Shown here one piece after another: positions 28,688 to 55,180 of a DNA stretch of 64,000 nt. Source of the DNA: Clostridia bacterium (GTDB lineage Bacteria > Bacillota > Clostridia > Christensenellales > CAG-138). Both the position numbers and the translations under genes were made by a program. Location: the NCBI GenBank assembly GCA_017541305.1, contig JAFXZJ010000055.1:25778-89777 (forward strand), read 5' to 3'. Numbering within the stretch: the first letter of the stretch is position 1; each line of letters opens with the position of its first letter. The notes under the pieces are model-generated. The model saw only the letters and a program-made list of their open reading frames with translations, made no database searches and was not told the origin of the DNA.

Positions 28688-30328
28688 TTATGTAATCAGA
28701 ATCGCGATTGTGATTGCAGCAATAATGACTGCCGCAACAATCAAGAGGACAATCCTCTCCCTCTTGTTTTTCTTCTTTGCATTTATCTCTTCTTCTTCTT
28801 TCTCAGCTTTCAGAGACTCGATCTTTTTTCGGCAGATCTCTATCTGATGCTCCGAATCCTTCCATCCGGGAATCGACTCAAATATCTTGATGGCTTTTTC
28901 ATAATCGTCAATATAATGACTACCCATTTTGCTGAAAGCCGCATTATAGAAAGAATCCATATATACAGCATTGGCTTTTTCTCGGCAGTCCGCAGCACGC
29001 TGTTCGGCATCCTTGAATCCGTTGATGCCAAGAAATGCTTTTTCGGCCTGCTTAAAATCATATTCGGACTTAGCGCAATTTGCGAGACCGTCAGCCTTGC
29101 GATAAAGTATGGCATTATTATACCCTATAAGCTCATCTTGCAGCTTTTTATCACCAAAACGGAGTGCTTTTTTGTAATTACTGAGTTGTTCAAAAGCATC
29201 TGTGCGGGAAACAAGATCGGCTCTTGTTGTGACCTTGAGTTCCGCCATAAGCTTAGCAACATATGCTTCCGCATTCTCAGGATCCTGATCCAGCACCTTT
29301 TCGGCGTATTCGTCCGCGCTCTGCCACTCGCCATCCTCCAGATACATGAAAGCGCGCTTCAAAAGCGGCGCTATGTTCGCACTGCCGCCAGTGACCACGG
29401 TGGTTTCCTTTACGACCGGCTTCGATTCGCCGTCACGGACGATCTTCTTGATTCCGCGGATAAGATCCTGCATGAAGCCAAGCTTACTCATATCCTGAGC
29501 CTGCAGATGGGAGAACTCGTCGGGCAGATCGTAGGGATCCATATCGCGGTAGGCGGGGATGAGCACCTTCTTGCCGCCGCTCTGCTTGACAAGCGAAAGG
29601 TAGCGGCTCCATTCGTTCTTTACCCACACCGCTTTGAAATGCTCCGGCTTGGTGCCGAGCACGACCATGACCTTTGCGCTGTTCAGCGCGGCGAAAATAT
29701 AGGGCTCGTAGGCCGTGCCGAGCTTATCCTCCAGTGTGATGCGCGAGAAGAAGACCTTGAAGCCCTCCTGCGTGAGCTGATGGTAGAGGTCGTTCGCCAG
29801 CACGGAATCCATCGTTCGCCTGCCGTTTGCATCCGTTTCCTTATAGCAAATGAAAACATCGAACGGCTCTTCCTTCTGCGATATGGCAAGGATGCCCTTT
29901 TGAATCTCATTTATGGCGTTTGCTTCCGCTTCATAGAGGGATCGCTGATACCCGTCAGCGTACCGCAGGGCGGATTTGTAGTTGTCGTCATCAAAAACGG
30001 AAGTGAATTGCGCGCGGTTGACCGTAGGCATACGTTTGCGTGTCGCAGGATCTTCCACGTATTCGATACCGTAGCGGCAGAGCACCAGCGACCAGTAAGC
30101 CTCCGCGTCCGTCGTGTCCTCGTTCAGTATCTGCTCGTAGATCCCCGCAGCCTTGTCGAACTCGTTGTTCCGGCGAAAATGGTTCGCGCGGTCGTATAGA
30201 TTTTCCTTACGCTCGGAGTCAAGCTTTGGCAAAGTCTGCTTAGAACCACAGTACTCGCACTCCGCAACGGTAGAGCCCTTGTCGATGATCAGGTCGCCCC
30301 CGCACATTTTGCATTTGAAAATGGACAT
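28688..30328 (-). CDS. Zinc-ribbon-TPR-TIR-domain protein with C-terminal TM anchor (TIR paralog 1)
   Basis: N-terminal MSIFKCKMCGG...CEYCGS. TIR block FDVFICYKETD...FFSRITLEDKLG...AALNSAKVMVVLGT...AVWVKNEWSRYL. TPR-like helices. C-terminal IVLLIVAAVIIAAITIAILIT. Confidence 0.8.
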   Translation of the reverse strand: MSIFKCKMCGGDLIIDKGSTVAECEYCGSKQTLPKLDSERKENLYDRANHFRRNNEFDKAAGIYEQILNEDTTDAEAYWSLVLCRYGIEYVEDPATRKRMPTVNRAQFTSVFDDDNYKSALRYADGYQRSLYEAEANAINEIQKGILAISQKEEPFDVFICYKETDANGRRTMDSVLANDLYHQLTQEGFKVFFSRITLEDKLGTAYEPYIFAALNSAKVMVVLGTKPEHFKAVWVKNEWSRYLSLVKQSGGKKVLIPAYRDMDPYDLPDEFSHLQAQDMSKLGFMQDLIRGIKKIVRDGESKPVVKETTVVTGGSANIAPLLKRAFMYLEDGEWQSADEYAEKVLDQDPENAEAYVAKLMAELKVTTRADLVSRTDAFEQLSNYKKALRFGDKKLQDELIGYNNAILYRKADGLANCAKSEYDFKQAEKAFLGINGFKDAEQRAADCREKANAVYMDSFYNAAFSKMGSHYIDDYEKAIKIFESIPGWKDSEHQIEICRKKIESLKAEKEEEEINAKKKNKRERIVLLIVAAVIIAAITIAILIT

Positions 30329-30348
30329 ATTGTTCCCTCCGGATATAG

Positions 30349-31050
30349 TTATTTATTCAGTTTGCAAAGCCTGTTCCTCTCCGAAAGAACTGACTGGGCT
30401 TTTTTGCATAGCGGCATTATGCTCTCGTTATCGCCATCGACTATTGCGCGCTGAATCTCCTGCATCAGGGCGTTGAGCTCGCCTTCGGCTTCGGCTGTCG
30501 CGTCATTTGAAACGGGATCGCAGTAGTTGAGCGCGTCTGCAAGCTTTTTCAGTTCCGCCCTTGCCTCTTCGTTTTCGCAGCCGGCCGCAAGGCTGTTGCC
30601 GATAGAGCGAAGCTCCCGGATCTTCTCGACGTCCTTTTTCAATACCGTATCCTGCCGCTCGATCTCATCTCTTGTGGCGTCGGTCGCAACGGCCCCGAGG
30701 ATTGCTACGGCAAAGAGAAGAATGAACACAAGCACGAAAGGCCACGCGGGAATGCCGGGAATGGCAGCAAGGCCCATTGCAAGAAAGCTCAGTATCAGCT
30801 GTACCGTCGCATAGATACTACCAACGCGAGCGATCGGAAAACCGTAAAAGCGGCTCTTTGCCGAATCGCCCTTGCCGAAAGCAACTGCAAATATGAGCAG
30901 ACTTGTAAGTATCGCGAGAAGGCCAAACCCGTAGCCCACCCAGAACACGGAGTTGTGTTTGAAAGGAAGCACGAATGCAAGAACGTTATAAACGACCAGG
31001 ATTACTGCGACCGTGATGATCGCGCGTATCATTTTTTTGCTGAGCTTCAT
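30349..31050 (-). CDS. 4-TM membrane protein with cytoplasmic coiled-coil tail
   Basis: Hydrophobic N-terminal half and coiled-coil C-terminal half. Gene is adjacent to (1-bp gap) the SPFH gene. Confidence 0.55.
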   Translation of the reverse strand: MKLSKKMIRAIITVAVILVVYNVLAFVLPFKHNSVFWVGYGFGLLAILTSLLIFAVAFGKGDSAKSRFYGFPIARVGSIYATVQLILSFLAMGLAAIPGIPAWPFVLVFILLFAVAILGAVATDATRDEIERQDTVLKKDVEKIRELRSIGNSLAAGCENEEARAELKKLADALNYCDPVSNDATAEAEGELNALMQEIQRAIVDGDNESIMPLCKKAQSVLSERNRLCKLNK

Positions 31051-31051
31051 A

Positions 31052-32950
31052 TTATTCTCCCTTCTTAAAGCCGCAGTCCGGGCAGAACTTGCTTGTTATG
31101 TCCTTTGCTCCGCATTCCGGGCAGATCCAACCCTTTTTTTCCTCAGGCTTCTTCGCGCCGCAATTCGGGCAGAATTTTGATTTGATTCCATTCGTTCCGC
31201 ATTCGGGGCATGTCCAGCCTGCCGTCTCATCTGGCTTTTTTGCTCCGCATTCGGGACAGAATTTGCTTGATATGTTTGTTGTTCCGCATACAGGGCACGT
31301 CCAACCGACTTTTGGTTCCGGCTTCTTTGCCCCGCAGTCCGGGCAGAACTTGCTTGTTATGTTTCGGGTCCCGCATTCGGGGCACGTCCAGCCTGCAGGA
31401 ACAGGCGTGCCTTCTGCGACAGAGGTCTGCTCCTGGGCATTCGGGTTTATCCCATTCATTATATTGCCTATCTGCGGAGCCATTGCGCTCATTGCAGCCA
31501 TACCCACGCCAAGACCCATGATATCACCCATCACACTGCCTCCGCCGACGCTGACTCCAGAGCCCATGTTGCCGATGCCCTCGGCGTATGCCTTCTGAAC
31601 TTCCGTCTGCAGGACGTCCTTCTGGTTGTATCCCTTTGCGGCCATGATCTCCGCCTCGGTCAAGCCATGCACCCGCGCGGCCTGTGCTTCCGCCTGTGCC
31701 TCAATGATCTTGCGCTCAGCCTCACGCCTTGCGACCTCTGTCTTTGTCGTTTCCCCCTGCAGGACTGCTTCGCGCCTTGCCGCCTCGACCTGCGCCTTTG
31801 CCTGCTCCTCAACGGTCTTCACAGTCGCCTGTGCCTGAACCACGCGGGTCTGCAGAACGATGGTATGCAGTTCACGGATGCGCTTGAAATTCGGATCGTC
31901 CTCGGGAAGGACGATATGCGTAACATAAAGCTGCGGAACGGTGAGGCCGTACTCCTCAAAGCCCTCTGTTACCTTTTGACGGAGCGAATCGGAGATGATC
32001 TCCAGCTTTTCATCCACCTCGAGTATGTCGATATCATTCGTCTTTATTACCGTTGGTAGATTGGTTTTGACTGCGCTTGCTATCATCGGACGGAAGGAGG
32101 CCTGCAGGCTCTTTGTGAATCCGGCACTGTCGCGATCTTCCCAAGCGACGCCGCTCGTCGTTCCCACAAGCTTAATAAGCAGTTTCCTCGAATCGCCAAC
32201 GGCAATGTTCATTTCTCCAGATGCGCCGATCTCAAGAGGCGTCCCGGTCAGAGGATCGATGAAACGCACCTTATCAGGCGTACCCCATTTGATGGCCATC
32301 TGAACGGTCTTGTTTATGAAATAGATCTCGCTGTGGAAGGTCCTCTCCGCGTTTGTGGGAAGCTTATACAGCTTTTCGAGCATCGGCAGCTGCTGTGTCT
32401 CAAGCGTGTAACGGCCCGGCCCGAACAGGTCGAGCGCCTGTCCGTCACGGAAGAATACCGCTTCCTGACTTTCATGGACGATGAGCTGGGAGCCGTAGTT
32501 GAAGTCCTCAACGGGATGCTTCCAGATGAAGGTAGAGTTGTCGCCCTCGTACTTGATTATGGATGCAAGGCCCTCCGCCTTGATGCGCTCCTTCTCAACG
32601 CGCTCGGCGACGTCGTTGTCATGGTCGCACACGGGGCAGACGTAGTGCGAAGCGGCCTTCGAGGTCTGGAGCCGGACGCCGCACTGCGCGCAGGAGAACT
32701 CGACAGTCTTGTCCTGCTCTGCCATCGTATTGATGGGCTCATGGCAGACGGGGCATTTAGCGCCGGCACCCTTGGATTGATCAAATACCACGTTGTTCCC
32801 GCAGTGCGGGCAAACGCGGCTTGCCAGCTTGTCCGTGCGGACATCAATAGTATACCCGCACGCACAGCTGATCTTTTTACTTGCGAAGAACCCAGCCTTC
32901 GCCTCAGCATAGCGCCCGCAGTTGGGGCATTCGATTACGAATTTTGCCAT
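31052..32950 (-). CDS. Multi-zinc-ribbon SPFH/Band-7 (PF13421-like) protein with four tandem C-terminal zinc-ribbon repeats
   Basis: Three N-terminal CxxC pairs. SPFH core IIKYEGDNSTFIWKHPVEDFNYGSQLIVHESQEAVFFRDGQALDLFGPGRYTL. Coiled coil. Four repeats of GWTCPECGT..I.SKFCPDCGAKKPE. Confidence 0.75.
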   Translation of the reverse strand: MAKFVIECPNCGRYAEAKAGFFASKKISCACGYTIDVRTDKLASRVCPHCGNNVVFDQSKGAGAKCPVCHEPINTMAEQDKTVEFSCAQCGVRLQTSKAASHYVCPVCDHDNDVAERVEKERIKAEGLASIIKYEGDNSTFIWKHPVEDFNYGSQLIVHESQEAVFFRDGQALDLFGPGRYTLETQQLPMLEKLYKLPTNAERTFHSEIYFINKTVQMAIKWGTPDKVRFIDPLTGTPLEIGASGEMNIAVGDSRKLLIKLVGTTSGVAWEDRDSAGFTKSLQASFRPMIASAVKTNLPTVIKTNDIDILEVDEKLEIISDSLRQKVTEGFEEYGLTVPQLYVTHIVLPEDDPNFKRIRELHTIVLQTRVVQAQATVKTVEEQAKAQVEAARREAVLQGETTKTEVARREAERKIIEAQAEAQAARVHGLTEAEIMAAKGYNQKDVLQTEVQKAYAEGIGNMGSGVSVGGGSVMGDIMGLGVGMAAMSAMAPQIGNIMNGINPNAQEQTSVAEGTPVPAGWTCPECGTRNITSKFCPDCGAKKPEPKVGWTCPVCGTTNISSKFCPECGAKKPDETAGWTCPECGTNGIKSKFCPNCGAKKPEEKKGWICPECGAKDITSKFCPDCGFKKGE

Positions 32951-32954
32951 GGTT

Positions 32955-33431
32955 TTATTCCTCCGTTTGAATATTGTCTGTTGAATTTGTTTTTTCCGAC
33001 GGGCTGTTCGTCTCCTGCCCGTTTGCGGCGCCGCGCGATCTGCGGAATTTCTCGGCGAGCCTTTCTATGCTGATATAGTATTCGTCATCCTTGAACTGCT
33101 TCCTTCTCTGGTCGATCAGATACACCTTGAAATCATCGTATAATCTGATTATCAACCTGCTTCCGCTGCTCTTCACGGTGCGGTAGGAATAGTACCCCGA
33201 AAGAACGCCCGAGCAGAAGCTCTCAAGCTTCCCGAAGTAATTGACGCAGTTTCTGTAATAATCCGAATTATCCTTCCTGTTCCTTCCGGCGATCTCTCTG
33301 TGATAGCTGTCCTTGAGCTTGTTGAGCGTTTCAAGCGTCCTCTGCTTTCTCGAAAGCAGCTTATCCCAGATAAACGTTGCCGTCGTCAGCATGAGCGATA
33401 AAGCGGCTATACCGGTTCCGATCAGTTCCAT
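32955..33431 (-). CDS. Small N-terminally membrane-anchored protein (158 aa)
   Basis: One N-terminal TM helix and a charged C-terminus. Paralogous decayed copy at 28200..28670. Confidence 0.55.
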   Translation of the reverse strand: MELIGTGIAALSLMLTTATFIWDKLLSRKQRTLETLNKLKDSYHREIAGRNRKDNSDYYRNCVNYFGKLESFCSGVLSGYYSYRTVKSSGSRLIIRLYDDFKVYLIDQRRKQFKDDEYYISIERLAEKFRRSRGAANGQETNSPSEKTNSTDNIQTEE

Positions 33432-33472
33432 TTTTCCTCCTCTGTTTACAAGGCTTACAGCGTATTCGGCGG

Positions 33473-36145
33473 TCAGTTTTGCATTGCCCTTATCCGCGAA
33501 TCGAGCTGCGCTATCTCCGCCTCGAGCTCCCTTCTGCGCTTGCCGGTAAAGAGGCCCTTGAGGTTTTTGAGCTCCGCTTCGGCTTCGGCACGGCGCTTTA
33601 AAAGGGTCTCGAGCAGAAGCCTGCGCTCGTTTTCCGCACGCTCCGCGGCTTCCCGGCGCTCACGCTCTGCGCGCTCAGCGGCTTCCCGGCGTTCACGCTC
33701 TCTCTGCTCATCTTTGGACTTTTGCTCCTGTTCAAGAGTATCGATACCGTCGAAAAGCTTCCAGTCCTTTGTATTGCATTGTCCATAATCAAACCCATTA
33801 CTTTTCCGAGTCTCAATGTACTTAGTCGCAACAACGGTGCCGTCTGATTTCAATCCGACTGTTCGTCCTGGCGCCGCAAATACCGCGACAATATCCGTCC
33901 AGTTCTTGACGTTGCACTGACCGTTAGTATTACTTCCTGCAGCTACTACAGTTCCATCCTCCTTAAGGCCTACAATATGATAATCGGAATCATCCTTGTT
34001 AGCCCATCCGACATCACTGGATCCGGCAATCGATAGGATGCCTTTCCATTTTTTGACCTGTGAGAGGAACCCGAAGTCGTCGGAACACACAACACGTCCG
34101 TCCTCTTTTAAGCCGATGATGGACGAATACGGTTCGTCGTAGAAAACGGAAACAGCGATGATGTCCGCCCATTTTGAAACCCGGTTTTTAAGCTTGTTGA
34201 GACCTTTGACAATATCTTCATATTCTTCATCATCCTCATCGTACTCGATGGAGTGATACGGAGAGACGACGACCTTCTTATCGTTCTTTATACCGACGAT
34301 CAGATCATAGGTGCTTGCAACTGAAACAATATTATTCCAACTCGCAAACGCTTCTGTATCGTCTGGATCGGTAGAAACGACCGTTCCATCCTTTCTGATA
34401 CCGAATACATCAGATTCGGAGGCAAACACATCTGTAATATCACGCCAGGCGACGGTCTTAGTATCCCCGGCGCAAACAGCCGAACCGTCGTTTCTCAGTC
34501 CGATAAGGAATCTATCTCCGGCAGCTAACTTGACTATGCCTCGCCATTTATCAATGTCAAAACTCTTCTTCGAGGCGAAAGCAACCGTACCGTCGCCTCT
34601 TAATCCGGCGGTAAAACTGTTACCGGCAGCTATCGAAACGATGTCTGACCAATCGCCGACTTCGCATTGGCCATCATAGGAAGAATACAATTCGCCGCGC
34701 AGACGGGAATAATCGTTTTGGACATGTTCTTTGTATTTTGTGGCAAATACTTTACCTTGGATATTCAATGCGACCGTATGGTTTTTTCCACAGCAGACCA
34801 GGTTTTGAGCCGAAGCATACTTGGCTCTCAAATCGATAAGGCGCTGCTTCCCGGCAGCAATGCTTTTTTCTTCCTGCTCGATTCTTGCCTTCTCCCTATC
34901 TTTCTGTTCCTTTTCGATTCTTGAGAACCATTCGGCTGTCTCCTTGTCTGCGAAGCGTTTAGCGCGTTCGTATTCCTTTCCCTGTTGTATCAAGGAAGAA
35001 AAATTCTGCTCAAAATCTTCCTTAGACCTCACGTTTGCCTCTGCAAGCATAATGCCCAGATAGGCTCTGCTGTTCTCCGGGTCGATATCGAGCACCTTGT
35101 TGAAATATCCCTCGGCTTGCCCGAACTCGCCCTCCTCAAGGAAGAGCTGCGCCCGCTTGAGCAGCGAACCCACGCTCGGACCCGCGTCCGTCTGCTGTAT
35201 CACCTGCTGAATTATCCGCTGCTCCGACTGCGCCTTTTCGGGCTCGTCCTTTCCGATCACCTTTTTGATGCCGCGGATCAGGTCCTGTATAAAGCCGATC
35301 TTTGCCATATCATAGCTTTGCAGAACGGAGAGCTGCTCGGGAAGATCGTATGGATCCATGCCCTTGTAGCATGGCAAAAGGAGCTTTGAGCGATCCTTGC
35401 GCATCAGCGCGAGAAAACGGCTCCACTCGTTCTTGACCCAGACGGCGTTGAAATATTCCGGCTTCGAGCCGATCGCGATCATAACCTTTGCGGAATTGAG
35501 CGCGGCGAAGATATAGGGCTCGTACTCGGAGCCTACCTTATCCTCGAGCGTTATCCTCGAGAAGAACACGCGGTAGCCTTCGCTTGTGAGCTGATAGTAG
35601 ATCTCCTGCGCGTCGATGCTGTCCTTTGTACGCTCCTTGGTGTTGTCGTCGGTCTCCTTATAGCAGATGAAAACGTCGAAAGGCTCCTCGTTCTGCGAGG
35701 TGGCGAGTATGCCCTTCTGTACCTCCGCGATCTTCGCTCCGTCCTTCTGATACTGGCGGCGGGTGATGCCATCGGAGTTTTCGAGCGCGGCGATGTAATC
35801 CACGTCCTCAAGGAAGCTGTCAAAGCTCGCCCTGTGGCAGGTGGGGATGTATTCATACGTGTTCGGATCCTCAACGTACTCTATACCGAACCTGCACAGC
35901 GCGCAGCACCAGTGCGCCTCGGCGTCGGCGTCGTCCTCACGAACGATGTTCTCGTAGATCGCAAGCGCCTTATCGAATTCGCCCGCGCGCCTGAAATGAT
36001 TTCCCCTGTTGAACAGCGCCGCCCGCTGCTCGTCCGATACCTTAGGCAGAGTCATCGTCGACCCGCAGTATTCGCAGGTCCCAAAGGTCTTTTCTTCATT
36101 GAGGACTATGTCCCCACCGCACATTTTGCATTTGATAATCGCCAT
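33473..36145 (-). CDS. Zinc-ribbon-TPR-TIR protein with RCC1-like beta-propeller repeats and C-terminal ERERREAAERA coiled-coil (TIR paralog 2)
   Basis: N-terminal MAIIKCKMCGG...CEYCGS. TIR block FDVFICYKETDDNTKERT...AVWVKNEWSRFL. Seven to eight RCC1-like repeats such as GLKEDGTVVAAGSNTNGQCNVKNW. Duplicated ERERREAAERAE segment. Confidence 0.8.
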   Translation of the reverse strand: MAIIKCKMCGGDIVLNEEKTFGTCEYCGSTMTLPKVSDEQRAALFNRGNHFRRAGEFDKALAIYENIVREDDADAEAHWCCALCRFGIEYVEDPNTYEYIPTCHRASFDSFLEDVDYIAALENSDGITRRQYQKDGAKIAEVQKGILATSQNEEPFDVFICYKETDDNTKERTKDSIDAQEIYYQLTSEGYRVFFSRITLEDKVGSEYEPYIFAALNSAKVMIAIGSKPEYFNAVWVKNEWSRFLALMRKDRSKLLLPCYKGMDPYDLPEQLSVLQSYDMAKIGFIQDLIRGIKKVIGKDEPEKAQSEQRIIQQVIQQTDAGPSVGSLLKRAQLFLEEGEFGQAEGYFNKVLDIDPENSRAYLGIMLAEANVRSKEDFEQNFSSLIQQGKEYERAKRFADKETAEWFSRIEKEQKDREKARIEQEEKSIAAGKQRLIDLRAKYASAQNLVCCGKNHTVALNIQGKVFATKYKEHVQNDYSRLRGELYSSYDGQCEVGDWSDIVSIAAGNSFTAGLRGDGTVAFASKKSFDIDKWRGIVKLAAGDRFLIGLRNDGSAVCAGDTKTVAWRDITDVFASESDVFGIRKDGTVVSTDPDDTEAFASWNNIVSVASTYDLIVGIKNDKKVVVSPYHSIEYDEDDEEYEDIVKGLNKLKNRVSKWADIIAVSVFYDEPYSSIIGLKEDGRVVCSDDFGFLSQVKKWKGILSIAGSSDVGWANKDDSDYHIVGLKEDGTVVAAGSNTNGQCNVKNWTDIVAVFAAPGRTVGLKSDGTVVATKYIETRKSNGFDYGQCNTKDWKLFDGIDTLEQEQKSKDEQRERERREAAERAERERREAAERAENERRLLLETLLKRRAEAEAELKNLKGLFTGKRRRELEAEIAQLDSRIRAMQN

Positions 36146-36188
36146 ACTATTCTCCTATAGCAAATTAAGCATTTTAACACTGACTTTT

Positions 36189-36614
36189 CTAAACTCTACG
36201 ATCACGTTCTAAGTCTATTGCTATCTGCTCTGTCTCCTGAGTGGAACACTCAAAAACATACAGTTTATGTAACAGCTCCGAATCTGAAGGATAGGATGCA
36301 CCTCGTCTGTTAATTTCGATTTGTATTTCAGACTTAAGAGATTGGTTCTTAAAGAAAGTATCGTATAATTCGACTCTCTCTTTTGTCATTTGATCTTTGC
36401 TGTTAATGTACTCCTGCATTAGATCATGAAGAAATAACGGGTCATAAGCTTTAATGTTAGCAATTGTATCATCCGCCCTTTTAAGAGTATTATTCACATA
36501 ATTGGTGAACCTCTGAATGTTTTCAATGCCAAAGAACACAATCTTGCAATCATCACAAAGAAAAGCTTCGTTCTTCCATTCACACGGTTTATTGCAACTT
36601 GGGCAGTTATACAT
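36189..36614 (-). CDS. Small zinc-ribbon protein (CPSCN...CDDC), 141 aa
   Basis: Low-GC ORF between TIR paralogs 2 and 3. Confidence 0.45.
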   Translation of the reverse strand: MYNCPSCNKPCEWKNEAFLCDDCKIVFFGIENIQRFTNYVNNTLKRADDTIANIKAYDPLFLHDLMQEYINSKDQMTKERVELYDTFFKNQSLKSEIQIEINRRGASYPSDSELLHKLYVFECSTQETEQIAIDLERDRRV

Positions 36615-36760
36615 AATCTTTCCTCCTAAACGTATTATACTAATTAAGTTGTGTAACGCAAGTAGTAGCTTGAATCAGCATACCTATTATTGCCCTTTTT
36701 CTAACAAGCGGAAGCACAATCCTTCTTTACCAAACAGACGTTTTCATAAGCACATGCATT

Positions 36761-39196
36761 CTAATCTCCAACCTTATTATCTAACCTGACCCACATTGCA
36801 GGACGAATAGCAGCATAACCATAACCGTTATTGCCCGAAACTGAGCAATGAGGGCTAATCCAACCTTCATCCGTGACTTTTGTTGCTTTTGTTGGATCTT
36901 CACCCGGTGTTCTCAGCCACCATCCGATCCTTGCATCGTTAGCTTTTCCGCCAACCCATTTGGCCTTGCCATTTACGATTTTATATGGAGAAACATATGA
37001 GTTATAAGCTTCTGCCTCCGATATTGTATAATATGTTGGGGCACATAATCTTTCAGTTTCTGACCGATAATACTTCTCAACATCCAAGACGCTAAGAAGA
37101 AACACCTTGTCGGTTGTGCCTTTACCTGGGGTAGAACTATACTTAGGGTTTTTATCAGCAGAAACCTTAGATGCTACAATACGGCTACGTTCTTCCGAAG
37201 TAAATGCGGTGATATAGAAAGAATTATTCAGCCATTTTCTCAATGAGCAAGTTTCCCATGTAACGCTCGTGACACAAAAGTTATACTGCTTATAGTCTAA
37301 TGCATATTTGCTGATGAGTAGCATACAATCATTCTCTACTGCGTACACCTGCCACTCGATAGGTTCGGAAGGGCTCCCTTTTTTTTGAATGTATCTACCA
37401 AACATATACGAAATAGGCGGAGCTTCTGGAAAAAGCTCTTTCACTGCAAGAGCAACATCTCGCCTTTTTTTATAAATATCAAGTGCTTCATTATAGCTAT
37501 ATGCGCTTGTAGTATTGTTGTGATTTGTCTCAGATAGAGTTTCAAGTTTTTTCGCAAACGCGGTTGCTTTTTCAAGATCATGCTCGATTTCTTCTCTTGA
37601 TGCATAGCCTTGAAGTTTTGTTTCTAACTGGTTAAGTCGTGAACGAACGGAATCCTTCTTCCTCTCATAATCAGAAAGCAGATAATCTATTTGTTTCTTC
37701 TCTTTACCAGCAAAAATGCCGAGTTTTGATTTCTGCGCTGTAAGCTCTGTCTGCTTAGATGAGTAGTCGCGAATCTCATTATTCATCAGCCCAATCTGTT
37801 CCTTAATATCATCAAAACAGATTAGTATTCCTTTAATGAATTCTATTCTTTTATTCGCAGACGAAATGCGTTCCTTGAGAGTAGGCGCACTAGGATTTGC
37901 TCTCATGAGTGCATCAGCAACTAGCTCAACTATGTTGTTCTCTTTAAACGCCTCTTCATCTTTAATGCGTTCATTTATCACATCAATATAGTTGCTTAGT
38001 TCTGATACAATGCTTGGTTCACCAAAACGTGCTATTTTTAAATAATTATAGTTTCCTTCAAACGGTCTCTTGCATCCTGCAAGTTCTGTTTGATGGGATA
38101 CTCTCAACTCGGCCATCAGTTTCACGAGATAAGCTCTAGCATTCTCCGGTTCATAGTCAAGAACCTTTTCAGCATACTCGTCTGCGTTCTTCCATTCCCC
38201 GTCTTCGAGATACAGAAACGCACGGTTCAAAAGCGCAGAAGTATTTGCACCAGGCGAACTTTGGACAAACGAATGCACAGGAGCTATTTCTTTCGTATCT
38301 TCCTTTGGCAGCAGTTTCTTTATTGCACGAATAAGATCCTGATCTGCGCCGACCTTGCCCATATCCTGAGATTGGAGTTTCGAAAACTCTTTGGGCATAT
38401 CATATGCGTCGATATCCTTGAAGCAAGGAATGAGCCGTTTCGTCTTGTCCTTTTCCATGAGCTTGAGGAAGCGGCTCCATTCGTTCTTGACCCAGACCGC
38501 ATTGAAATACTCATAATCAGTTCCAAATACAAGCATGATCTTTGCGCTGTTGAGCGCAGCAAAAACATAAGGCTCATACTCCTGCCCGAGCTTGTCCTCC
38601 AGCGTTATCCTTGAGAAAAACACACGATAGCCGGCATCGTTCAGCTTATCGTAGATATCTTGCGCAAGCACTGAGTCTATGGTGCGCTGCCCGACCTCTG
38701 CCGTTTCCTTATAGCAGATGAAAATATCATAGGGCTCTTCTTTACCCGAAACTTCAATTATGCTTTTACGCAGTTCCTCTATCCGCTTGGCTTCCTCCCG
38801 ATAGACCTTACGGGAAAGAGCGTCGGAATTCTCCATGACTTGTTCAAAATCCTTGTCGTCCATCACGCTGTCAAAGCTCGAGCGGTGACAGGTCGGGATC
38901 TTTTTTCCTGTGGCAGGATCATCCACATACTCTATACCGTAGCGGCAAAGCACGAGACCCCAGTAGGCCTCTGCTTCCTCGGGAAAGTCCGCAACGACGG
39001 ACTCAAAAACACCGGCGGCCTTGTCGAACTCGCACGCCGCACGCAGCCTGTTCGCCCTCGCAAACAGCGTCATTTTTTTGTCATTATCAGCTGTGGGAAC
39101 TGTCTGAACGCTGCCGCAGTATTCGCATTCCGCTACTGTTGAGCCTTCCGTCAGGATCAGATCGCCTCCGCACATTTTGCATTTGATAATCGCCAT
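36761..39196 (-). CDS. Zinc-ribbon-TPR-TIR protein with long coiled-coil and C-terminal DUF6273-like domain (TIR paralog 3)
   Basis: Same N-terminus and TIR core as paralogs 1 and 2. C-terminal motifs IEWQVYAVEN...LRKWLNNSFY...KVFLLSVLDVEKYY...GWWLRTPGEDP...AIRPAMWVRLD. Confidence 0.8.
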   Translation of the reverse strand: MAIIKCKMCGGDLILTEGSTVAECEYCGSVQTVPTADNDKKMTLFARANRLRAACEFDKAAGVFESVVADFPEEAEAYWGLVLCRYGIEYVDDPATGKKIPTCHRSSFDSVMDDKDFEQVMENSDALSRKVYREEAKRIEELRKSIIEVSGKEEPYDIFICYKETAEVGQRTIDSVLAQDIYDKLNDAGYRVFFSRITLEDKLGQEYEPYVFAALNSAKIMLVFGTDYEYFNAVWVKNEWSRFLKLMEKDKTKRLIPCFKDIDAYDMPKEFSKLQSQDMGKVGADQDLIRAIKKLLPKEDTKEIAPVHSFVQSSPGANTSALLNRAFLYLEDGEWKNADEYAEKVLDYEPENARAYLVKLMAELRVSHQTELAGCKRPFEGNYNYLKIARFGEPSIVSELSNYIDVINERIKDEEAFKENNIVELVADALMRANPSAPTLKERISSANKRIEFIKGILICFDDIKEQIGLMNNEIRDYSSKQTELTAQKSKLGIFAGKEKKQIDYLLSDYERKKDSVRSRLNQLETKLQGYASREEIEHDLEKATAFAKKLETLSETNHNNTTSAYSYNEALDIYKKRRDVALAVKELFPEAPPISYMFGRYIQKKGSPSEPIEWQVYAVENDCMLLISKYALDYKQYNFCVTSVTWETCSLRKWLNNSFYITAFTSEERSRIVASKVSADKNPKYSSTPGKGTTDKVFLLSVLDVEKYYRSETERLCAPTYYTISEAEAYNSYVSPYKIVNGKAKWVGGKANDARIGWWLRTPGEDPTKATKVTDEGWISPHCSVSGNNGYGYAAIRPAMWVRLDNKVGD

Positions 39197-39217: not shown

Positions 39218-39409
39218 TTATTTTTCCGTTATCTCCATATGACGGAGCGCGAACTCCAACCCTAACAAAATGATCTCGTTTCGCGTGCGCCCGGTATCCT
39301 GCGCGACCTTATCGACGTCGTGCAGCATATCCTTTGGCATACGAACCGAGATCACCTGTGATTCCTCCGTGTATCTTTTCGGAGTTATTATCAGCTTCTG
39401 CTCTGTCAT
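39218..39409 (-). CDS. Ribbon-helix-helix (CopG/antitoxin-like) DNA-binding protein, 64 aa
   Basis: MTEQKLIITPKRYTEESQVISVRMPKDMLHDVDKVAQDTGRTRNEIILLGLEF. GGAGGT RBS precedes the ATG. Confidence 0.55.
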   Translation of the reverse strand: MTEQKLIITPKRYTEESQVISVRMPKDMLHDVDKVAQDTGRTRNEIILLGLEFALRHMEITEK

Positions 39410-39821
39410 GCAGTACCTCCGTGTCCTTGTTCCATTGTAACACAATTGTATTCTGTTTGCAATACCCAATTATATTTAATTTCGATTAATAGTCATTTTC
39501 CATCTCCGCTATGCAAGTATAAGGGCCACAGAGATCTACACTACTCTAAAAAACGCCCCGAAGCGTAGCTGCCAAAATCGATTTGCCTGAAAGTTGTGTT
39601 GAAATCTTCGATTCGCCTCATTACGGCATTAAATCGGTGTAATAGTGTGCAGCAGTCTACTTCTGCCTCGTCAACCCAAGATCATACTGCTGATAATCCG
39701 GCAGCTCATATTCCATACGGATATCGAACTGCGCGTGGTGCTTACTCTTCACCGGGGGATCGGGATTTGTCAGCGCACCCTTGCCGACTCAGTTGAACAA
39801 AAGTGTCATGCTATGTTGACG

Positions 39822-40166
39822 TCATTGCTTCTCAATAAAATCCGATAGTATCTTCAGCAGTTCGGGGACGTCGTTTTTGACGGTGTCATAAATGATGGTG
39901 AGATCAACACTGCCGTATTCGTGGACGATCCTGTTGCGCAGACCCTTGACCGCCCTCCACGGGATCTCCGTGTTCTGTGCTTTGAAATCCTCGGAAAGCT
40001 TGTCCGCGCTTTCCGAGACCTGAATAAGCCTGAACATGGCGGAGTCGGCCAAAACTTCGTCTTTTTCAAGCTCCTCTTTCGTAATACGCGCGGTGTGAGC
40101 GACGATGAAGCCAAGATCGTTAATGATCCGATTCACATAGTAGCGGTCATTTTTGACATTATCCAT
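39822..40166 (-). CDS. hepT: HepT-like (DUF86) RNase toxin
   Basis: RNRIVHEY motif (Rx4HxY). Overlaps the upstream mntA by 8 nt. Confidence 0.8.
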   Translation of the reverse strand: MDNVKNDRYYVNRIINDLGFIVAHTARITKEELEKDEVLADSAMFRLIQVSESADKLSEDFKAQNTEIPWRAVKGLRNRIVHEYGSVDLTIIYDTVKNDVPELLKILSDFIEKQ

Positions 40167-40629
40167 AGATCTTTATACCATCCTTCAATACTTCATTTAC
40201 AAGATCGGGGTTTTCGGCAAGCTGCGAATAAGAAAGCACATCCACCTTCTTCTTCAAGCCTTCTCGAAGAGCTTCCACGAGATCGTAGAACCGGATCCCG
40301 GAAACCTTTGTCGAGAGAAGCAGATCGACGTCGCTCTCTTCACCGGCTTTGCCTTTCGCATAAGAGCCGAAAAGATAGCAGTATTCGACTTCATAAGCCG
40401 GAAGTATCTCGGCGCATTTTTGAGTGATGGCCTCAATACTCAATACTCCATGGCTTTCGTCCATATACCCGTACTGCTCGAGCTTTTGGAAAATGTAAAG
40501 GTACTTGAAGGATGTGCGCTTCCTCTCATCGTTCTCGTAGTTTTGATATGTTCGCAAGGGCATTCCGAGGAAAGCAGCGCTTTCCGCCTGCGTCAACCCC
40601 TTGCTTTTTCTTAGTTCTTTTAGTGTCAT
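40159..40629 (-). CDS. mntA: MntA-like nucleotidyltransferase antitoxin with N-terminal XRE HTH
   Basis: HTH LKELRKSKGLTQAESAAFLG. NTase motif LFGSYAKGKAGEESDVDLLL. AGGTGA RBS before ATG at 40629. Confidence 0.8.
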   Translation of the reverse strand: MTLKELRKSKGLTQAESAAFLGMPLRTYQNYENDERKRTSFKYLYIFQKLEQYGYMDESHGVLSIEAITQKCAEILPAYEVEYCYLFGSYAKGKAGEESDVDLLLSTKVSGIRFYDLVEALREGLKKKVDVLSYSQLAENPDLVNEVLKDGIKIYG

Positions 40630-40906
40630 AGCATTCACCTCGGTATGATTATAGCATACTTGCGTCCGCTTCGCAAGCAACAATACGCAACAATTGCGCA
40701 TTATATGCAACAATTACACGCAATTGCTGCGTTTAATGTTGCATATTCGTGCGCAAAGGCTGCGTATATCGGCTGATTTAGCCTCACAGATTAGTTTTGC
40801 ATTATGCAGCCAAACGTATCCCCGTTGCTCCGCAAGAGCTCACATTTTTCATTCCCGTATCGCCATTTGGAATCAATTGCTAGCTAACGAAAGGATTCCC
40901 CGAGTT

Positions 40907-41046
40907 GTTTGGTTGCCCCATAGATTTACACTACTCTCAAACCTTCCCGGCGTACACCGCGACGTCCGCCGGTTTGAGTACCCCATAGATTTACACTACT
41001 CTCAAACTGATGCTGATAGTTATAGTATCGCCGAACTGTTTGAGTA
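40907..41046 (+). CRISPR. CRISPR-like remnant: two 36-nt repeats, 29- and 30-nt spacers, truncated third repeat; type II-like repeat termini
   Basis: GTTTGGTTGCCCCATAGATTTACACTACTCTCAAAC at 40907-40942 and GTTTGAGTACCCCATAGATTTACACTACTCTCAAAC at 40972-41007. Termini GTTTGAG/CTCAAAC are reverse-complementary. A partial repeat GTTTGAGTA at 41038 runs into the recombinase fragment. No cas genes in the window. Confidence 0.45.
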
Positions 41047-41234
41047 TCAAAGAGCTGACGCCCGAGCTTGTGAATACTCTCATCCGCCGAATCGAAATCC
41101 ATGAACCACAGCTAATCGACGGTCAGCGAACTGTAAACGTTGACATTTTCTTCACCGGCATCGGAATGTTCTCAGTACCCGATTCGGAAGAGCTGTCCGC
41201 TTTGATCGCCGAATTTTCCAAACATTCAGCATAA
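41044..41234 (+). pseudogene. 3' fragment of a large serine recombinase gene (last ~62 codons) plus conserved downstream hairpin
   Basis: [20 protein letters not shown]...[27 protein letters not shown] is about 85% identical to the C-terminus of 53342..55009. The next 60 bp (hairpin GGTGCAGGC..GCCTGCACC plus ACCCTCAAAAG) match 55010-55070. Confidence 0.65.
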
Positions 41235-41437
41235 AAAAACGGTGCAGGCCTTGAAAGCCTGCACCACCCCTCAAAAGGGATCCTTATACGGAACGTACCG
41301 TAAGACGGTTTTTCTCATTCTCTGTTCCTCCGGGGCGGATAGGTCTAATTTGACAGCGACGTTATTATACTATGCCCCAACCGCTGCTGTCAACAGGAAG
41401 AGAAAGCGCCGACCGTGTCAAGTTCTTCTGGGAGAAA

Positions 41438-42877
41438 TCAAACGACGGAATCGAGAGGCATGAGCTTCGCGTAAGCCTTGAGGATGGCGGTAGTGCCGGT
41501 GAGCTTGCCGTAGGACAGGCCAGCGGGAGCATGCTCGTTCTCGAATACGCTCCAATCGTGATATCCGCCGAAAGCCTCGTTGATCTGCTTTTCGGCGTAT
41601 TTGCTGTATATCTCAAGCCCGTTTTTAAGGGCATTGTGATCCTTAGTGCGTTCCTTTCGGCTCCTTGAAACGCGGATGTGATCCGGGGTGACCTTGCCGC
41701 CGTTTTCGGTGAAGATGCGGAGCATTGCCATCTTGCCAAGACCCTCCCTTGTCCATGCGAGAGGATTCCTTGAAAGGCGCTCCGAAAGCAGATGACTGAC
41801 GAGGGGTTCTGTGCAGCTTCCGGGATGATCGCCGGTAAGGCGTTCTACTATCGAATCCCAGTTATTTTGGAAGTAGTTGACAAGCTCGGAGAGCGCTTTC
41901 TCCCCCTTCTCGTCCTGCTTCTCGCCTATCGAAGCACAGAAGCGGACGAATGAATCGAAGTCATTCTCTCTTACAGCCTTCTTGATAACTCCGGCATAGG
42001 AGGAGGCTCCCTTGAGCATGAACAGCTTTTTGAAGTATTTCTCCAAATGGAAGCCATCCATCACGAATACGGCGTTCGGCATCAGCGTTCCGAGATTCGT
42101 GATCCAGTTCCCGCCGTCGGCGTGGATATAAACGTTCTTTACTTTGTCCATGTCATATCGCTCGTATATGGCGGCAGTAACGTTCTCAATAAAAGCTCCG
42201 TTATCCATCCCGAAGCCCTGAAAATGCACCGGGTTTATCGTTTTGTGCCTCTTTGGGTCCGAGGTATCCATACCCTCGGTAACGGTAACAAGAGGCACGA
42301 AAGCGCTTTTCCTCGGACGCAGATGAACGTGATCCTCATCGGCAAATACGTGAAGCTCGGAGGGAGTGTGCTTCGCTCTCTCCATTGCCGTTACAGGCGC
42401 TTTCATGGACAGAAGCTTGTTGTTTACAGTCTGACGGCTGACAAGACCTCCGGCAACATTTGCAGACTTCTGCATGGACATGGATGCGGCATACTGCACG
42501 AGCTCAGCGCAGAGCTCCTTTGACAGCCTCTCGTTCGGCTCTATCCCGATAAGGTGATCTACAAGATAGATGTTCCTTCCGTCTTTAAAGGAGAAATACG
42601 TCCGCTTGAAACGAAGCTCTCCCAATGCGGTCGTAAACACACGGGGAACATTCCGTTCTTTCACAGTCAGCCCGTCGAGCTTTCTCTCCTTCTTTGCGGC
42701 AAGAACAGCGTTATCTATTTCGCCTATAGCGGCGGATACAATCTCCAACGTGCCGGACTTCACGACCGAAGATAGCTTCTCAACGATCTTTGCCAGGTCA
42801 GACAGACCGACTTTTTCGATCGTTTTTAAAATTTCCTCTACCAATCCACAGGCTGTTTGTGTTATAATGTCTTTCAC
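41438..42877 (-). CDS. DDE transposase-like protein (ISLre2/UPF0236-family-like), 479 aa
   Basis: Family assignment is from memory. Acidic residues appear in IHADGGNWI...VFVMDGFHLEKY contexts. No clear terminal inverted repeats found by eye. Confidence 0.5.
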   Translation of the reverse strand: MKDIITQTACGLVEEILKTIEKVGLSDLAKIVEKLSSVVKSGTLEIVSAAIGEIDNAVLAAKKERKLDGLTVKERNVPRVFTTALGELRFKRTYFSFKDGRNIYLVDHLIGIEPNERLSKELCAELVQYAASMSMQKSANVAGGLVSRQTVNNKLLSMKAPVTAMERAKHTPSELHVFADEDHVHLRPRKSAFVPLVTVTEGMDTSDPKRHKTINPVHFQGFGMDNGAFIENVTAAIYERYDMDKVKNVYIHADGGNWITNLGTLMPNAVFVMDGFHLEKYFKKLFMLKGASSYAGVIKKAVRENDFDSFVRFCASIGEKQDEKGEKALSELVNYFQNNWDSIVERLTGDHPGSCTEPLVSHLLSERLSRNPLAWTREGLGKMAMLRIFTENGGKVTPDHIRVSRSRKERTKDHNALKNGLEIYSKYAEKQINEAFGGYHDWSVFENEHAPAGLSYGKLTGTTAILKAYAKLMPLDSVV

Positions 42878-43159
42878 GGGGCGCGCCTCACTTTCGTAAT
42901 GTTTGTAGGGTAAACAAATAATATCACGAAAGGTGCGTTCCCGTATTTCTTTTTTCTAAAACGAAACCACGTCTGTTTTCCGCTCCGCCCCCGCGGGGGC
43001 GGAGGCCCCGCCTCCCGGCGGGAAGGGTTTCGTTCTTTCTCCCAGATTTATTTTACACTAACGAAAGCGCCGCCGGCGGCTGTTATTCCCCGTTTTTCTT
43101 GAAAAAGAAGAACGTTTATGATACATTCAGATCGATCGTCGGTCTTTGCGGAGGTTATT

Positions 43160-51903: not shown

Positions 51904-52224
51904 ATGAGAAACCGAGAGTATGACATGCACCTGCGTCTGAACGAAGCGGAGTACCGCAAGCTCGGCGAGCTGGCACAAAAAGCGGGAGTCACCCGATCTG
52001 TAGTGCTGCGAAAAATGATCGTGGGCACGGAGATCAAGGAACGTCCTAACGTCGATTTCATTGATCTGGTCAGCACGATCGACCATCTGTGCATAAACGT
52101 GAACCAGATCGCGCATCACGCAAACGTGCAGGGCGGTATCACCGCAGAGGAGGCCACTGAAGCAAAACGGTTGGTGACGGAGATCAGAAAAAGGCTTTAC
52201 TTGAAAAAGGACATTTGGATGTGA
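51904..52224 (+). CDS. mobC: MobC-family relaxosome accessory protein (RHH)
   Basis: MRNREYDMHLRLNEAEYRKLGELAQKAGVTRSVVLRK... About 88% identical to the minus-strand copy at 58033..58353. Confidence 0.7.
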   Translation: MRNREYDMHLRLNEAEYRKLGELAQKAGVTRSVVLRKMIVGTEIKERPNVDFIDLVSTIDHLCINVNQIAHHANVQGGITAEEATEAKRLVTEIRKRLYLKKDIWM

Positions 52225-53084: not shown

Positions 53085-55009
<1,925 letters not shown>

Positions 55010-55179: not shown

Positions 55180-55180
55180 T

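What the first reader, a model, noticed from the sequence alone, without database searches (positions are those of the whole stretch)
40907..41300. Type-II-like CRISPR repeat remnant truncated by and fused to the 3' end of a serine recombinase gene
- Two complete 36-nt repeats have termini GTTTGAG...CTCAAAC, reverse-complementary as in type II repeats. Spacers of 29 and 30 nt are unrelated in sequence.
- A third repeat breaks off after 9 nt exactly where homology to the last 62 codons of the large serine recombinase (53342..55009) begins.
- The conserved downstream hairpin (41235-41300) matches 55010-55070.
- No cas genes are in the window.
- A degenerate repeat-like copy (AGATCTACACTACTCTAAAAAAC, 39529-39552) lies on the other side of the HepT/MntA cassette.
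- This looks like a recombination scar: an element carrying int captured or deleted through a CRISPR array.
Basis: seen in the sequence. Interest (0 to 1): 0.6.

Follow-up and report, generated by a model that had tools for sequence, protein, structure and literature searches.

The report
Decayed type II-A CRISPR array stump
This is the dead tail end of a Cas9-type (II-A) CRISPR array: two old spacers survive, and a deletion that removed the rest of the array and the cas genes joined them to the last 62 codons of a mobile-element recombinase gene. It is a real genomic scar but an ordinary one.

Summary
There are two 36-nt repeats (40907-40942 and 40972-41007), unrelated spacers of 29 and 30 nt, and a 9-nt repeat stub (41038-41046). 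At 41047 the stub passes directly into the last 62 codons, hairpin and end motif of a TnpX-like large serine recombinase (LSR). This stretch is 80% identical to the resident gene at 54820-55074.

The same 36-mer forms arrays of 7-12 copies in rumen/gut Clostridia MAGs. In L001 it lies beside cas9-cas1-cas2-csn2 and a classic tracrRNA, so the repeat is type II-A. Comparison with those loci shows three things:
- The crRNA strand is the window's minus strand.
- 40907 is the degenerate terminal repeat.
- The leader, the younger spacers, the cas operon and the tracrRNA all lay on the side that was lost.

The window holds no cas gene and no tracrRNA. The joint shares only 2 nt (TA) between the parent sequences, which fits an illegitimate deletion. 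LSR homology stops at about 41301 in five different contexts, so that point is probably a mobile-element end.

The copy at 39517-39552 (27/36 matches; background maximum 20/36) is a decayed repeat, not a tracrRNA. A portable HepT/MntA cassette (39824-40854) lies between it and the array. All ten related contigs compared are 100% identical across the scar. No spacer target was found. The stump is most likely inert, and interest is low.

The parts
39517..39552 (-). Solitary decayed repeat copy (GTATAAGGGCCACAGAGATCTACACTACTCTAAAAA on the + strand), in the same orientation as the array.
   Evidence: 27/36 matches against a background maximum of 20/36. It keeps the repeat's TCT rather than the GAGT bulge of the tracrRNA anti-repeat, and it lacks a nexus, hairpins and terminator.
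39553..39566 (-). Terminator-like hairpin (ACGCTTCGGGGCGT plus a T-run) whose T-run runs into the decayed repeat.
39824..40854 (-). Portable HTH-MntA / HepT toxin-antitoxin cassette with its promoter region, lying between the decayed copy and the array.
   Evidence: Pfam HepT-like, Polbeta/NTP_transf_2 and HTH_3. Exactly 39824-40854 is 87% identical to L029, L030 and L032, which sit in an unrelated context without any CRISPR.
40855..40906 (-). Trailer flank of the array (52 nt).
   Evidence: It lies between the cassette boundary and the terminal repeat. It has no homology to the trailers of other loci.
40907..40942 (-). Degenerate terminal (trailer-end) repeat.
   Evidence: Its 3 mismatches are all in the 3' part of the crRNA-sense repeat. 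L008 shows the same polarity of decay at its cas-distal repeat.
40943..40971 (-). Spacer 1, the oldest (29 nt).
   Evidence: No credible target: searches found nothing, and the 20/29 hit in L028 is judged chance.
40972..41007 (-). Consensus 36-nt type II-A repeat.
   Evidence: Identical to the repeats of L001, L005, L008 and L010. L001 carries cas9-cas1-cas2-csn2.
41008..41037 (-). Spacer 2 (30 nt).
   Evidence: No target in phages, plasmids or IMG/VR.
41038..41046 (-). 9-nt stub of the third repeat. The deletion joint lies here, with TA at 41045-41046 shared by both parent sequences.
   Evidence: Alignment with the parent-like allele L035 and the resident LSR...CGGA|TA|TCAAAG against the repeat GAG|TA|CCCC.
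41047..41234 (+). Last 62 codons plus the stop codon of a TnpX-like large serine recombinase (DUF4368 region). It is a pseudogene fragment.
   Evidence: Pfam DUF4368, E 2.5e-15. 80% nt identity to 54820-55009 and about 95% to L035. The window holds no N-terminal part.
41241..41265 (.). Conserved hairpin after the recombinase stop codon. On the minus strand it is followed by T7, so it is terminator-like in the direction that leads towards the array.
   Evidence: plus the sequence.
41280..41301 (+). Conserved end motif ATCCTTATACGGAACGTACCGT. Homology to all other copies stops here, so this is the probable end or att half-site of the recombinase-bearing element.
   Evidence: Five-way alignment. 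The motif occurs only here and at 55053-55074 in the window, against 0 expected.
41364..41393 (-). Perfect sigma-70 consensus promoter (TTGACA-18-TATAAT) outside the IS, pointing towards the scar.
   Evidence: 12/12 matches.
41415..43058 (-). ISLre2-type insertion sequence (UPF0236 transposase at 41438-42877). Terminal inverted repeats are at 41415-41437 and 43036-43058. The flanking direct repeat GAAAGCGCCG is at 41402-41411 and 43063-43072.
   Evidence: Pfam UPF0236, E 3.7e-45. Inverted repeats. The direct repeat was read. It is a simple insertion 114 nt beyond the element end, not at the array joint.

Best explanation
The locus is the trailer-end stump of a type II-A (Cas9/Csn2) CRISPR array, read on the minus strand. 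One deletion had an endpoint 9 nt into a repeat and the other at codon 501/502 of a large serine recombinase (LSR) gene at the end of a neighbouring, or carrying, mobile element.

The deletion removed the leader, all younger repeat-spacer units, csn2-cas2-cas1-cas9, the tracrRNA and the first ~500 codons of the recombinase. It joined the two breakpoints across a 2-nt (TA) microhomology.

What remains is:
- the degenerate terminal repeat;
- one consensus repeat;
- the two oldest spacers;
- a 9-nt stub;
- the element's last ~255 bp (62 codons, hairpin and end motif).

With no leader, Cas9 or tracrRNA within 64 kb, the stump is most likely inert. It sits in a low-GC accessory region full of defence genes and mobile-element debris, and the same scar is fixed in every related contig compared.

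Shown by tool results:
- the anatomy;
- type II-A identity of the repeat;
- orientation of the array;
- absence of cas genes and tracrRNA;
- the microhomology;
- conservation of the scar.

Inferred, not shown:
- that a single deletion produced the joint;
- that 41301 is an element end;
- that the stump is inactive.
For: Identity of the repeat:
- A 22-mer from the repeat finds 17 arrays in Clostridia, Oscillospiraceae and Lachnospiraceae MAGs.
- L001, L005, L008 and L010 carry the identical 36-mer with 29-31-nt spacers.
- L001 encodes Cas9 (REC, PI, HNH, RuvC and BH domains), Cas1, Cas2 and Csn2 next to the array. Its Cas9 is SpCas9-like (E 1e-134).
- L001 and L008 have a tracrRNA with an anti-repeat duplex, nexus, three hairpins and a U-run.

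Orientation and what is missing:
- In L001 and L008 the cas genes lie on the side that corresponds to coordinates above 41046 in the window. The cas-distal repeat decays in the same positions as the 40907 copy.
- The window has no cas gene, tracrRNA or leader homology.

The recombinase side:
- The fragment is DUF4368, 80% identical to the resident LSR 3' end and about 95% identical to allele L035, whose upstream sequence reveals the TA microhomology.
- No LSR N-terminal part exists in the window.
- Homology ends at about 41301 in five contexts.

Setting:
- The IS has its own inverted repeats and target duplication and is not at the joint.
- Ten related contigs are 100% identical over 39401-41500 (nine over all 2,100 nt; L026 to its contig end at 41219).
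- GC drops from about 0.60 to 0.39-0.55 from roughly 26 kb onward.
Against: - No ancestral locus with a continuing array or an intact parent recombinase next to cas9 was recovered. A scan for spacer 2 followed by an intact third repeat found nothing. That collection may not contain this organism at all. The parent-like allele is known only from a 524-nt contig.
- A single deletion is the simplest history but is not proven. Several steps, an inversion, or IS-assisted rearrangement could give the same joint.
- Inactivity is not shown. Both surviving spacers are still followed by a full repeat, which is all that crRNA maturation requires, and the rest of the genome was not available to exclude a cognate cas9 and tracrRNA acting in trans.
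- The 2-nt microhomology assumes the true parent recombinase had the same bases as L035 and the resident gene at that point.
Confidence: 0.85

Rival explanations
1. A functional orphan mini-array. The two spacers are still transcribed and are used in trans by a type II-A Cas9 and tracrRNA with the same repeat encoded elsewhere in the genome, as with Enterococcus faecalis CRISPR2.
For: - Each spacer is followed, in crRNA sense, by a complete repeat.
- A weak promoter-like site spans the joint on the minus strand at 41050->41022 (9/12 matches), and a perfect promoter lies upstream at 41393->41364.
- The stump is 100% conserved in the 10 contigs compared.
- Orphan II-A arrays that work with a trans Cas9 are documented (PMC5491264, PMC4580645).
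Against: - No leader, cas9 or tracrRNA is present in the 64-kb window.
- On the minus strand the hairpin at 41265-41241 followed by T7 looks like a terminator between the perfect promoter and the array (sequence).
- Neither spacer has a credible target.
- The conservation carries no weight, because the flanking 2 kb is equally identical.
- The genome-collection scan with a 22-mer from the repeat, which covers one representative genome per species, returned no locus whose sequence outside the repeats matches this window.
Confidence: 0.08
2. Site-specific integration. A serine-recombinase element uses the CRISPR repeat as its attB, so the joint is an att junction rather than a deletion.
For: - The break falls inside a repeat.
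- Another locus with the same repeat (L008) has an LSR gene directly upstream of cas9 and the tracrRNA.
Against: - The joint is 188 nt inside the recombinase ORF. The conserved module end lies 255 nt further on, at about 41301, where five copies diverge.
- No 5' part of the recombinase lies elsewhere in the window.
- The L008 recombinase has an unrelated C-terminus and the opposite orientation.
- Other fragments of this family end at different codons and are not beside CRISPR repeats.
Confidence: 0.03
3. A mini-array carried as cargo by a mobile element, built to exploit a host Cas9 against competing elements.
For: - The array is small and lies next to an element end, inside an accessory region rich in mobile elements and defence genes.
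Against: - The third repeat is cut mid-sequence and fused in the middle of an ORF. That is damage, not design.
- The terminal-repeat decay matches that of ordinary chromosomal arrays of the same family.
- The spacers match no virus or plasmid.
- The element's own recombinase is destroyed.
Confidence: 0.03
4. Not CRISPR at all, but a chance tandem duplication or minisatellite.
For: Only two and a quarter copies are present. Rfam has no matching family.
Against: - The identical 36-mer forms arrays of 7-12 copies in L001, L005, L008 and L010, and in L001 and L010 these lie next to cas9 and cas1, with cas2 and csn2 also confirmed in L001. Near-identical variants form arrays of up to 25 copies.
- The spacers are unique.
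- Rfam also fails on the intact L001 locus, so its silence is uninformative.
Confidence: 0.01

Closest known systems
Type II-A CRISPR-Cas loci (cas9-cas1-cas2-csn2, tracrRNA upstream of cas9, Streptococcus pyogenes type)
   Same: The 36-nt repeat is identical to that of intact II-A loci in L001, L005, L008 and L010. Spacer length is about 30 nt. The terminal repeat is degenerate at the cas-distal end. The repeat pairs with the anti-repeat of the cognate tracrRNA.
   Different: Here only the last two units survive. There is no leader, Cas9, Cas1, Cas2, Csn2 or tracrRNA in 64 kb.
Enterococcus faecalis orphan CRISPR2 (a type II-A array without cas genes; PMC4580645, PMC5491264)
   Same: It is a type II-A repeat array standing alone without cas genes.
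   Different: My understanding, from memory and not re-read here, is that CRISPR2 is a complete array that works with CRISPR1 Cas9 supplied in trans. The two abstracts retrieved say only that it is an orphan locus lacking cas genes. This locus is visibly truncated in the middle of a repeat, has lost its leader side, and no trans Cas9 is known for it.
TnpX/TndX-like large serine recombinases of clostridial mobile elements (Resolvase + Recombinase + Zn_ribbon_recom + DUF4368)
   Same: The fragment is the DUF4368 C-terminal tail plus the conserved downstream hairpin and end motif. Two full-length genes of the same family lie in the window at 53318-55009 and 55237-56967, but the hairpin and end motif recur only after the first, at 55053-55074.
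   Different: Only 62 of about 563 codons remain. The catalytic, recombinase and zinc-ribbon domains are gone, so it cannot act.
Loss of CRISPR-Cas by spontaneous or mobile-element-associated deletion (general knowledge; reported in staphylococci, streptococci and Pectobacterium)
   Same: A deletion with one endpoint in the array and the other in nearby mobile DNA removes the cas operon.
   Different: This joint is not at an IS end. The neighbouring IS is a separate simple insertion with its own target duplication.

Membership tests
CRISPR array, type II-A | Direct repeats of about 36 nt separated by unique spacers of about 30 nt | tested here: met
   Two full repeats plus a 9-nt stub, with spacers of 29 and 30 nt that are unrelated and unique. 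Arrays with the same repeat have 29-31-nt spacers.
CRISPR array, type II-A | The repeat sequence belongs to arrays that lie next to cas9, cas1, cas2 and csn2 | tested here: met
   The identical 36-mer lies beside Cas9, Cas1, Cas2 and Csn2 in L001. That Cas9 is SpCas9-like.
CRISPR array, type II-A | A tracrRNA whose anti-repeat pairs with the repeat | tested here: met
   Met in the cognate loci L001 and L008: duplex with a bulge, nexus, hairpins and U-run. No tracrRNA is present in the window itself.
CRISPR array, type II-A | cas genes and a leader adjacent to the array in this genome | tested here: not met
   tblastn with Cas9, Cas1, Cas2 and Csn2 gives E > 0.03 throughout. The window has no homology to the L001 leader. 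Hence this is a remnant, not a working locus.
CRISPR array, type II-A | Degenerate terminal repeat at the cas-distal end | tested here: met
   The 40907 copy has 3 changes in the 3' part of the crRNA-sense repeat. L008 shows the same polarity.
CRISPR array, type II-A | Spacers match mobile genetic elements | tested here: inconclusive
   No hits in the phage, plasmid or IMG/VR collections. One 20/29 match lies in a 63% GC viral contig and is judged chance.
Large serine recombinase (TnpX-like) | N-terminal resolvase catalytic domain, recombinase domain and zinc ribbon | tested here: not met
   The fragment has only DUF4368. No N-terminal part is found anywhere in the window. It is a pseudogene fragment.
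Large serine recombinase (TnpX-like) | C-terminal DUF4368 tail homologous to full-length family members | tested here: met
   Pfam E 2.5e-15. About 70% amino-acid and 80% nucleotide identity to the resident 563-aa LSR.
Functional orphan array (E. faecalis CRISPR2-like) | Cognate Cas9 and tracrRNA supplied from elsewhere in the genome, and transcription of the array | not testable with these tools
   Only 64 kb of the genome is available, and there are no expression data. Promoter-like and terminator-like sites are consensus matches only.
Mobile-element-borne mini-array | Complete repeats bracket the spacers, and the spacers target competing elements | tested here: not met
   The leader-side repeat is cut to 9 nt and fused to a broken ORF. 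No targets were found.

The most novel reading that the evidence does not exclude
The two-spacer stump is not dead. It is transcribed, either from the promoter-like site created across the joint (41050->41022) or by read-through, and its crRNAs are loaded by a Cas9/tracrRNA pair with the same repeat encoded elsewhere in the genome. A 'scar' would then be retained as a working orphan memory inside a defence island.
Probability: 0.08. Interest if true: 0.35.

Novelty: new member of a known kind. Interest (0 to 1): 0.15.

Why it matters
It matters little beyond annotation. The locus is a clean, base-resolved example of how a type II-A CRISPR-Cas system is lost: a deletion from inside a repeat into neighbouring mobile-element DNA across a 2-nt microhomology. 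It also shows that such a scar can become fixed in a gut/rumen Clostridia lineage, within a region where defence genes (TIR-TPR proteins, HepT/MntA) and mobile-element debris accumulate. For annotation pipelines it is a reminder that a two-repeat 'array' next to a short DUF4368 ORF is a relic and not a new system.

Tried and rejected
- **tracrRNA hypothesis for 39517-39552.** Rejected. The copy keeps the repeat's TCT instead of the GAGT bulge of the anti-repeat. It has no nexus, hairpins or terminator, unlike the L001 and L008 tracrRNAs.
- **Rfam.** There was no CRISPR-DR or tracrRNA hit in the window, but also none in the intact L001 locus, so the result is uninformative.
- **Spacer targets.** Phage and plasmid BLAST, plus four IMG/VR scans with full spacers and 20-mers, gave nothing credible.
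- **Ancestral array.** A metagenome scan for spacer 2 followed by an intact third repeat gave 0 hits. That collection may lack this organism, since all related contigs came from ENA or Logan.
- **Related strains through the MntA protein.**
  - Ten contigs carrying the identical protein all have the identical scar.
  - The 96% relative sits in an unrelated context without any CRISPR. It served only to delimit the cassette.
- **Parent recombinase.** Protein searches with the 62-aa fragment and with the 100-aa P0122 returned only short ORFs. Their contigs hold pseudogenes, fragments or tandem LSRs, and none lies beside CRISPR.
- **Insertion into the recombinase gene.** I looked for the 5' part of the gene elsewhere in the window. 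There is none.
- **Synteny between the window and the 17 repeat-bearing loci.** Only the repeats match.

Full report
**1. Observation**

- Two 36-nt direct repeats lie at 40907-40942 (GTTTGGTTGCCCC..., 3 mismatches) and 40972-41007 (GTTTGAGTACCCCATAGATTTACACTACTCTCAAAC).
- They are separated by a 29-nt spacer. A 30-nt spacer follows, and then only the first 9 nt of a third repeat (41038-46).
- From 41045/41047 to 41301 the sequence aligns with 54820-55074 at 80% identity (E 7e-62). That region is the last 62 codons, the stop codon, a hairpin and about 35 further bases of the 563-aa large serine recombinase (LSR) at 53318-55009.
- The 74-aa ORF across the joint is Pfam DUF4368.
- The more distant copy at 39517-39552 matches the repeat at 27/36 positions. 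No other position on either strand of the 64-kb window exceeds 20/36, so it is a real relic.

**2. Is it CRISPR, and which type?**

- A 22-mer from the repeat found 17 loci in one-genome-per-species bacterial collections. All are Clostridia, Oscillospiraceae or Lachnospiraceae MAGs, many from rumen or gut, with arrays of up to 25 copies.
- Four loci (L001, L005, L008, L010) have exactly the same 36-mer, with spacers of 29-31 nt.
- In L001 the array lies next to genes with Pfam Cas9 (REC, PI, HNH, RuvC and bridge-helix domains), Cas1, Cas2 and Csn2. The Cas9 is SpCas9-like (E 1e-134 to S. pyogenes Cas9 structures).
- Upstream of cas9, on the opposite strand, L001 and L008 carry a textbook tracrRNA. 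Its anti-repeat pairs with the repeat around a small bulge and is followed by a nexus, three hairpins and a U-run.
- The repeat is therefore a bona fide type II-A repeat, and the 'minisatellite' alternative is excluded.
- Rfam recognises neither the repeat nor the tracrRNA, even in L001, so its silence carries no weight.

**3. Orientation and what is missing**

- In L001 and L008 the cas operon is on the strand opposite to the GTTTGAGTACCCC... reading. It lies on the side that corresponds to coordinates above 41046 in the window.
- The crRNA-sense repeat is therefore GTTTGAGAGTAGTGTAAATCTATGGGGTACTCAAAC, on the window's minus strand.
- The 40907 copy, whose three changes fall in the 3' part of that reading, is the degenerate terminal repeat. 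L008 shows the same polarity of decay at its cas-distal end.
- So the oldest end of the array survives. The leader, all younger units, csn2-cas2-cas1-cas9 and the tracrRNA lay exactly where the recombinase fragment now begins.
- tblastn with the four L001 Cas proteins and blastn with the L001 tracrRNA and leader find nothing in the window.

**4. The joint**

- The recombinase fragment is not a duplicate of the resident gene (80% nt identity). It comes from another allele.
- A 524-nt gut-metagenome contig (L035) is about 95% identical to the fragment and continues upstream.
- The three sequences line up as follows:
  - repeat: GTTTGAG-TA-CCCC
  - parent-like allele: ...CGGA-TA-TCAAAGAG
  - scar: GTTTGAG-TA-TCAAAGAG
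- The two parents therefore share only the dinucleotide TA at the breakpoint. This is the signature of illegitimate, microhomology-level joining rather than site-specific recombination.
- No 5' portion of a third LSR gene exists in the window, so the recombinase gene was truncated, not split by an insertion.

**5. The recombinase side is an element end**

- I aligned five copies of this 3' module:
  - the scar;
  - the resident LSR1;
  - L035;
  - the pseudogene in L036;
  - the fragment in L039.
- All conserve the hairpin and the motif ATCCTTATACGGAAYG..CCGT, and all diverge immediately after it into five unrelated flanks.
- The motif occurs only at 41280-41301 and 55053-55074 in the window, against 0 expected.
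- I infer that about 41301 is the end (att half) of an LSR-bearing element whose body lay to the left, where the CRISPR remnant now is.
- The data cannot say whether the CRISPR-Cas locus was cargo of that element or a chromosomal neighbour.
- The ISLre2-type IS to the right (UPF0236 transposase) is a separate event. Its inverted repeats are at 41415-41437 and 43036-43058. It is flanked by the direct repeat GAAAGCGCCG at 41402-41411 and 43063-43072. It is a simple insertion 114 nt beyond the element end and not at the joint.

**6. The other side**

- The HTH-MntA/HepT pair is a portable module.
- Exactly 39824-40854 is 87% identical to contigs where a 96%-identical MntA sits between a lyase gene and acetyltransferase genes, with no CRISPR nearby.
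- This cassette separates the array's 52-nt trailer flank from a 271-nt non-coding stretch that ends at the decayed copy 39517-39552.
- That copy retains the repeat's ...CTACTCT... core rather than the anti-repeat's ...CTACGAGTTCAAAT... .
- It has no tracrRNA tail or terminator. On the minus strand it is overlapped by the T-run of a terminator-like hairpin.
- I read it as an older, decayed repeat and not as a tracrRNA.

**7. Population and context**

- Twenty-three public contigs (ENA and Logan; several sample names point to ruminant gut surveys) encode the identical MntA protein.
- All ten contigs examined are 100% identical to the window across 39401-41500 (L026 only to its contig end at 41219), although genes a few kb away differ between them. 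Examples are an 839-aa versus 890-aa TIR protein, and YaaC versus DUF4760.
- The scar is thus fixed in this lineage.
- It lies in an accessory region. GC falls from about 0.60 to 0.39-0.55 from roughly 26 kb onward, just after a tRNA gene.
- That region contains three TIR-TPR paralogues, a Band-7/zinc-ribbon protein, two toxin-antitoxin-like modules, an IS and two convergent LSR genes with ParB-like neighbours.

**8. Function**

The most likely state is inert.
- There is no leader, Cas9 or tracrRNA in 64 kb.
- On the crRNA strand, the conserved hairpin followed by T7 (41265-41241) sits between the only strong promoter-like site (41393->41364, 12/12) and the array.
- Neither spacer matches phage, plasmid or IMG/VR sequences. 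One 20/29 match in a 63% GC viral contig is judged chance.

A residual possibility of about 8% is that a cognate Cas9/tracrRNA elsewhere uses the two spacers in trans, as E. faecalis does with its orphan CRISPR2 (PMC4580645, PMC5491264). Each spacer is still followed by a complete repeat. This cannot be tested without the rest of the genome.

**9. Verdict**

- the array reads on the minus strand;
- the surviving part is the trailer end;
- the fragment comes from a non-resident recombinase allele;
- the joint is a 2-nt-microhomology deletion inside the ORF, not an att junction;
- the distant copy is a decayed repeat beyond a portable toxin-antitoxin cassette.

This is a new instance of a well-known kind of thing, a degraded orphan CRISPR array left by deletion of the cas locus. 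Interest is low (0.15).

Noticed in passing
L008:531-5105 (compared with L001:444-6599): This locus has the same repeat and keeps cas9, the tracrRNA, the leader and an 8-repeat array. Relative to L001 it has lost about 1.6 kb covering most of csn2, all of cas2 and most of cas1, leaving an 88-aa ORF that starts with the Cas1 N-terminus. It is an interference-only II-A locus. A large serine recombinase gene (5427-7055, minus strand) lies directly upstream of cas9 and the tracrRNA.
   Followed up: partly
L009:4997-5032 and L011:1012-1047: The genome scan found solitary single copies of the repeat family with no array around them. They may be further-decayed arrays or solo repeats.
   Followed up: no
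window 52215-58057: Two convergent large serine recombinase genes (53318-55009 on the plus strand, 55237-56967 on the minus strand) are only 37% identical to each other. Each is preceded by a ParB_N protein, and those two are 92% identical and in inverted orientation (52215-53084 and 57179-58057). Two elements appear to sit tail to tail, or this is an inverted duplication with recombinase replacement.
   Followed up: partly
window 28688-39196: The region holds three paralogous TIR-TPR proteins with different C-terminal modules: 546 aa, 890 aa with RCC1 repeats, and 811 aa with DUF6273. It also holds a Band-7/multi-zinc-ribbon protein (31052-32950) and a DUF4760 protein. Gene content varies between otherwise identical strains (839-aa versus 890-aa TIR protein; YaaC versus DUF4760). 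It looks like a variable defence island.
   Followed up: partly
window 41364-41393 (minus strand): A perfect TTGACA-18-TATAAT promoter sits in the 114 nt between the recombinase-element end and the IS, pointing into the element end. It drives no obvious gene. It may be the orphaned promoter of a gene disrupted by the element.
   Followed up: no
window 1051-1263 (minus strand) and 1380-1587 (plus strand): Two divergent cobalamin riboswitches lie back to back (Rfam 89 and 88 bits) at the start of a high-GC gene cluster.
   Followed up: no
L036:1000-1400, L039:6627-6776, L040:3065-4764: Pseudogenised or truncated 3' ends of the same DUF4368 recombinase family recur in unrelated contexts, always with the conserved hairpin and the ATCCTTATACGGAA motif. 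Examples are an in-frame stop, a 49-aa fragment and a frameshifted third gene of a tandem LSR triplet. The element ends seem to outlive the recombinase genes. The protein search returned only short ORFs, so how common this is remains unknown.
   Followed up: partly
window 18001-20000 and 36001-38000: There are sharp local GC dips, to 0.43 and 0.39 against about 0.60 in the core. The first lies around the 393-aa ORF 18067-19248, inside otherwise high-GC sequence.
   Followed up: no
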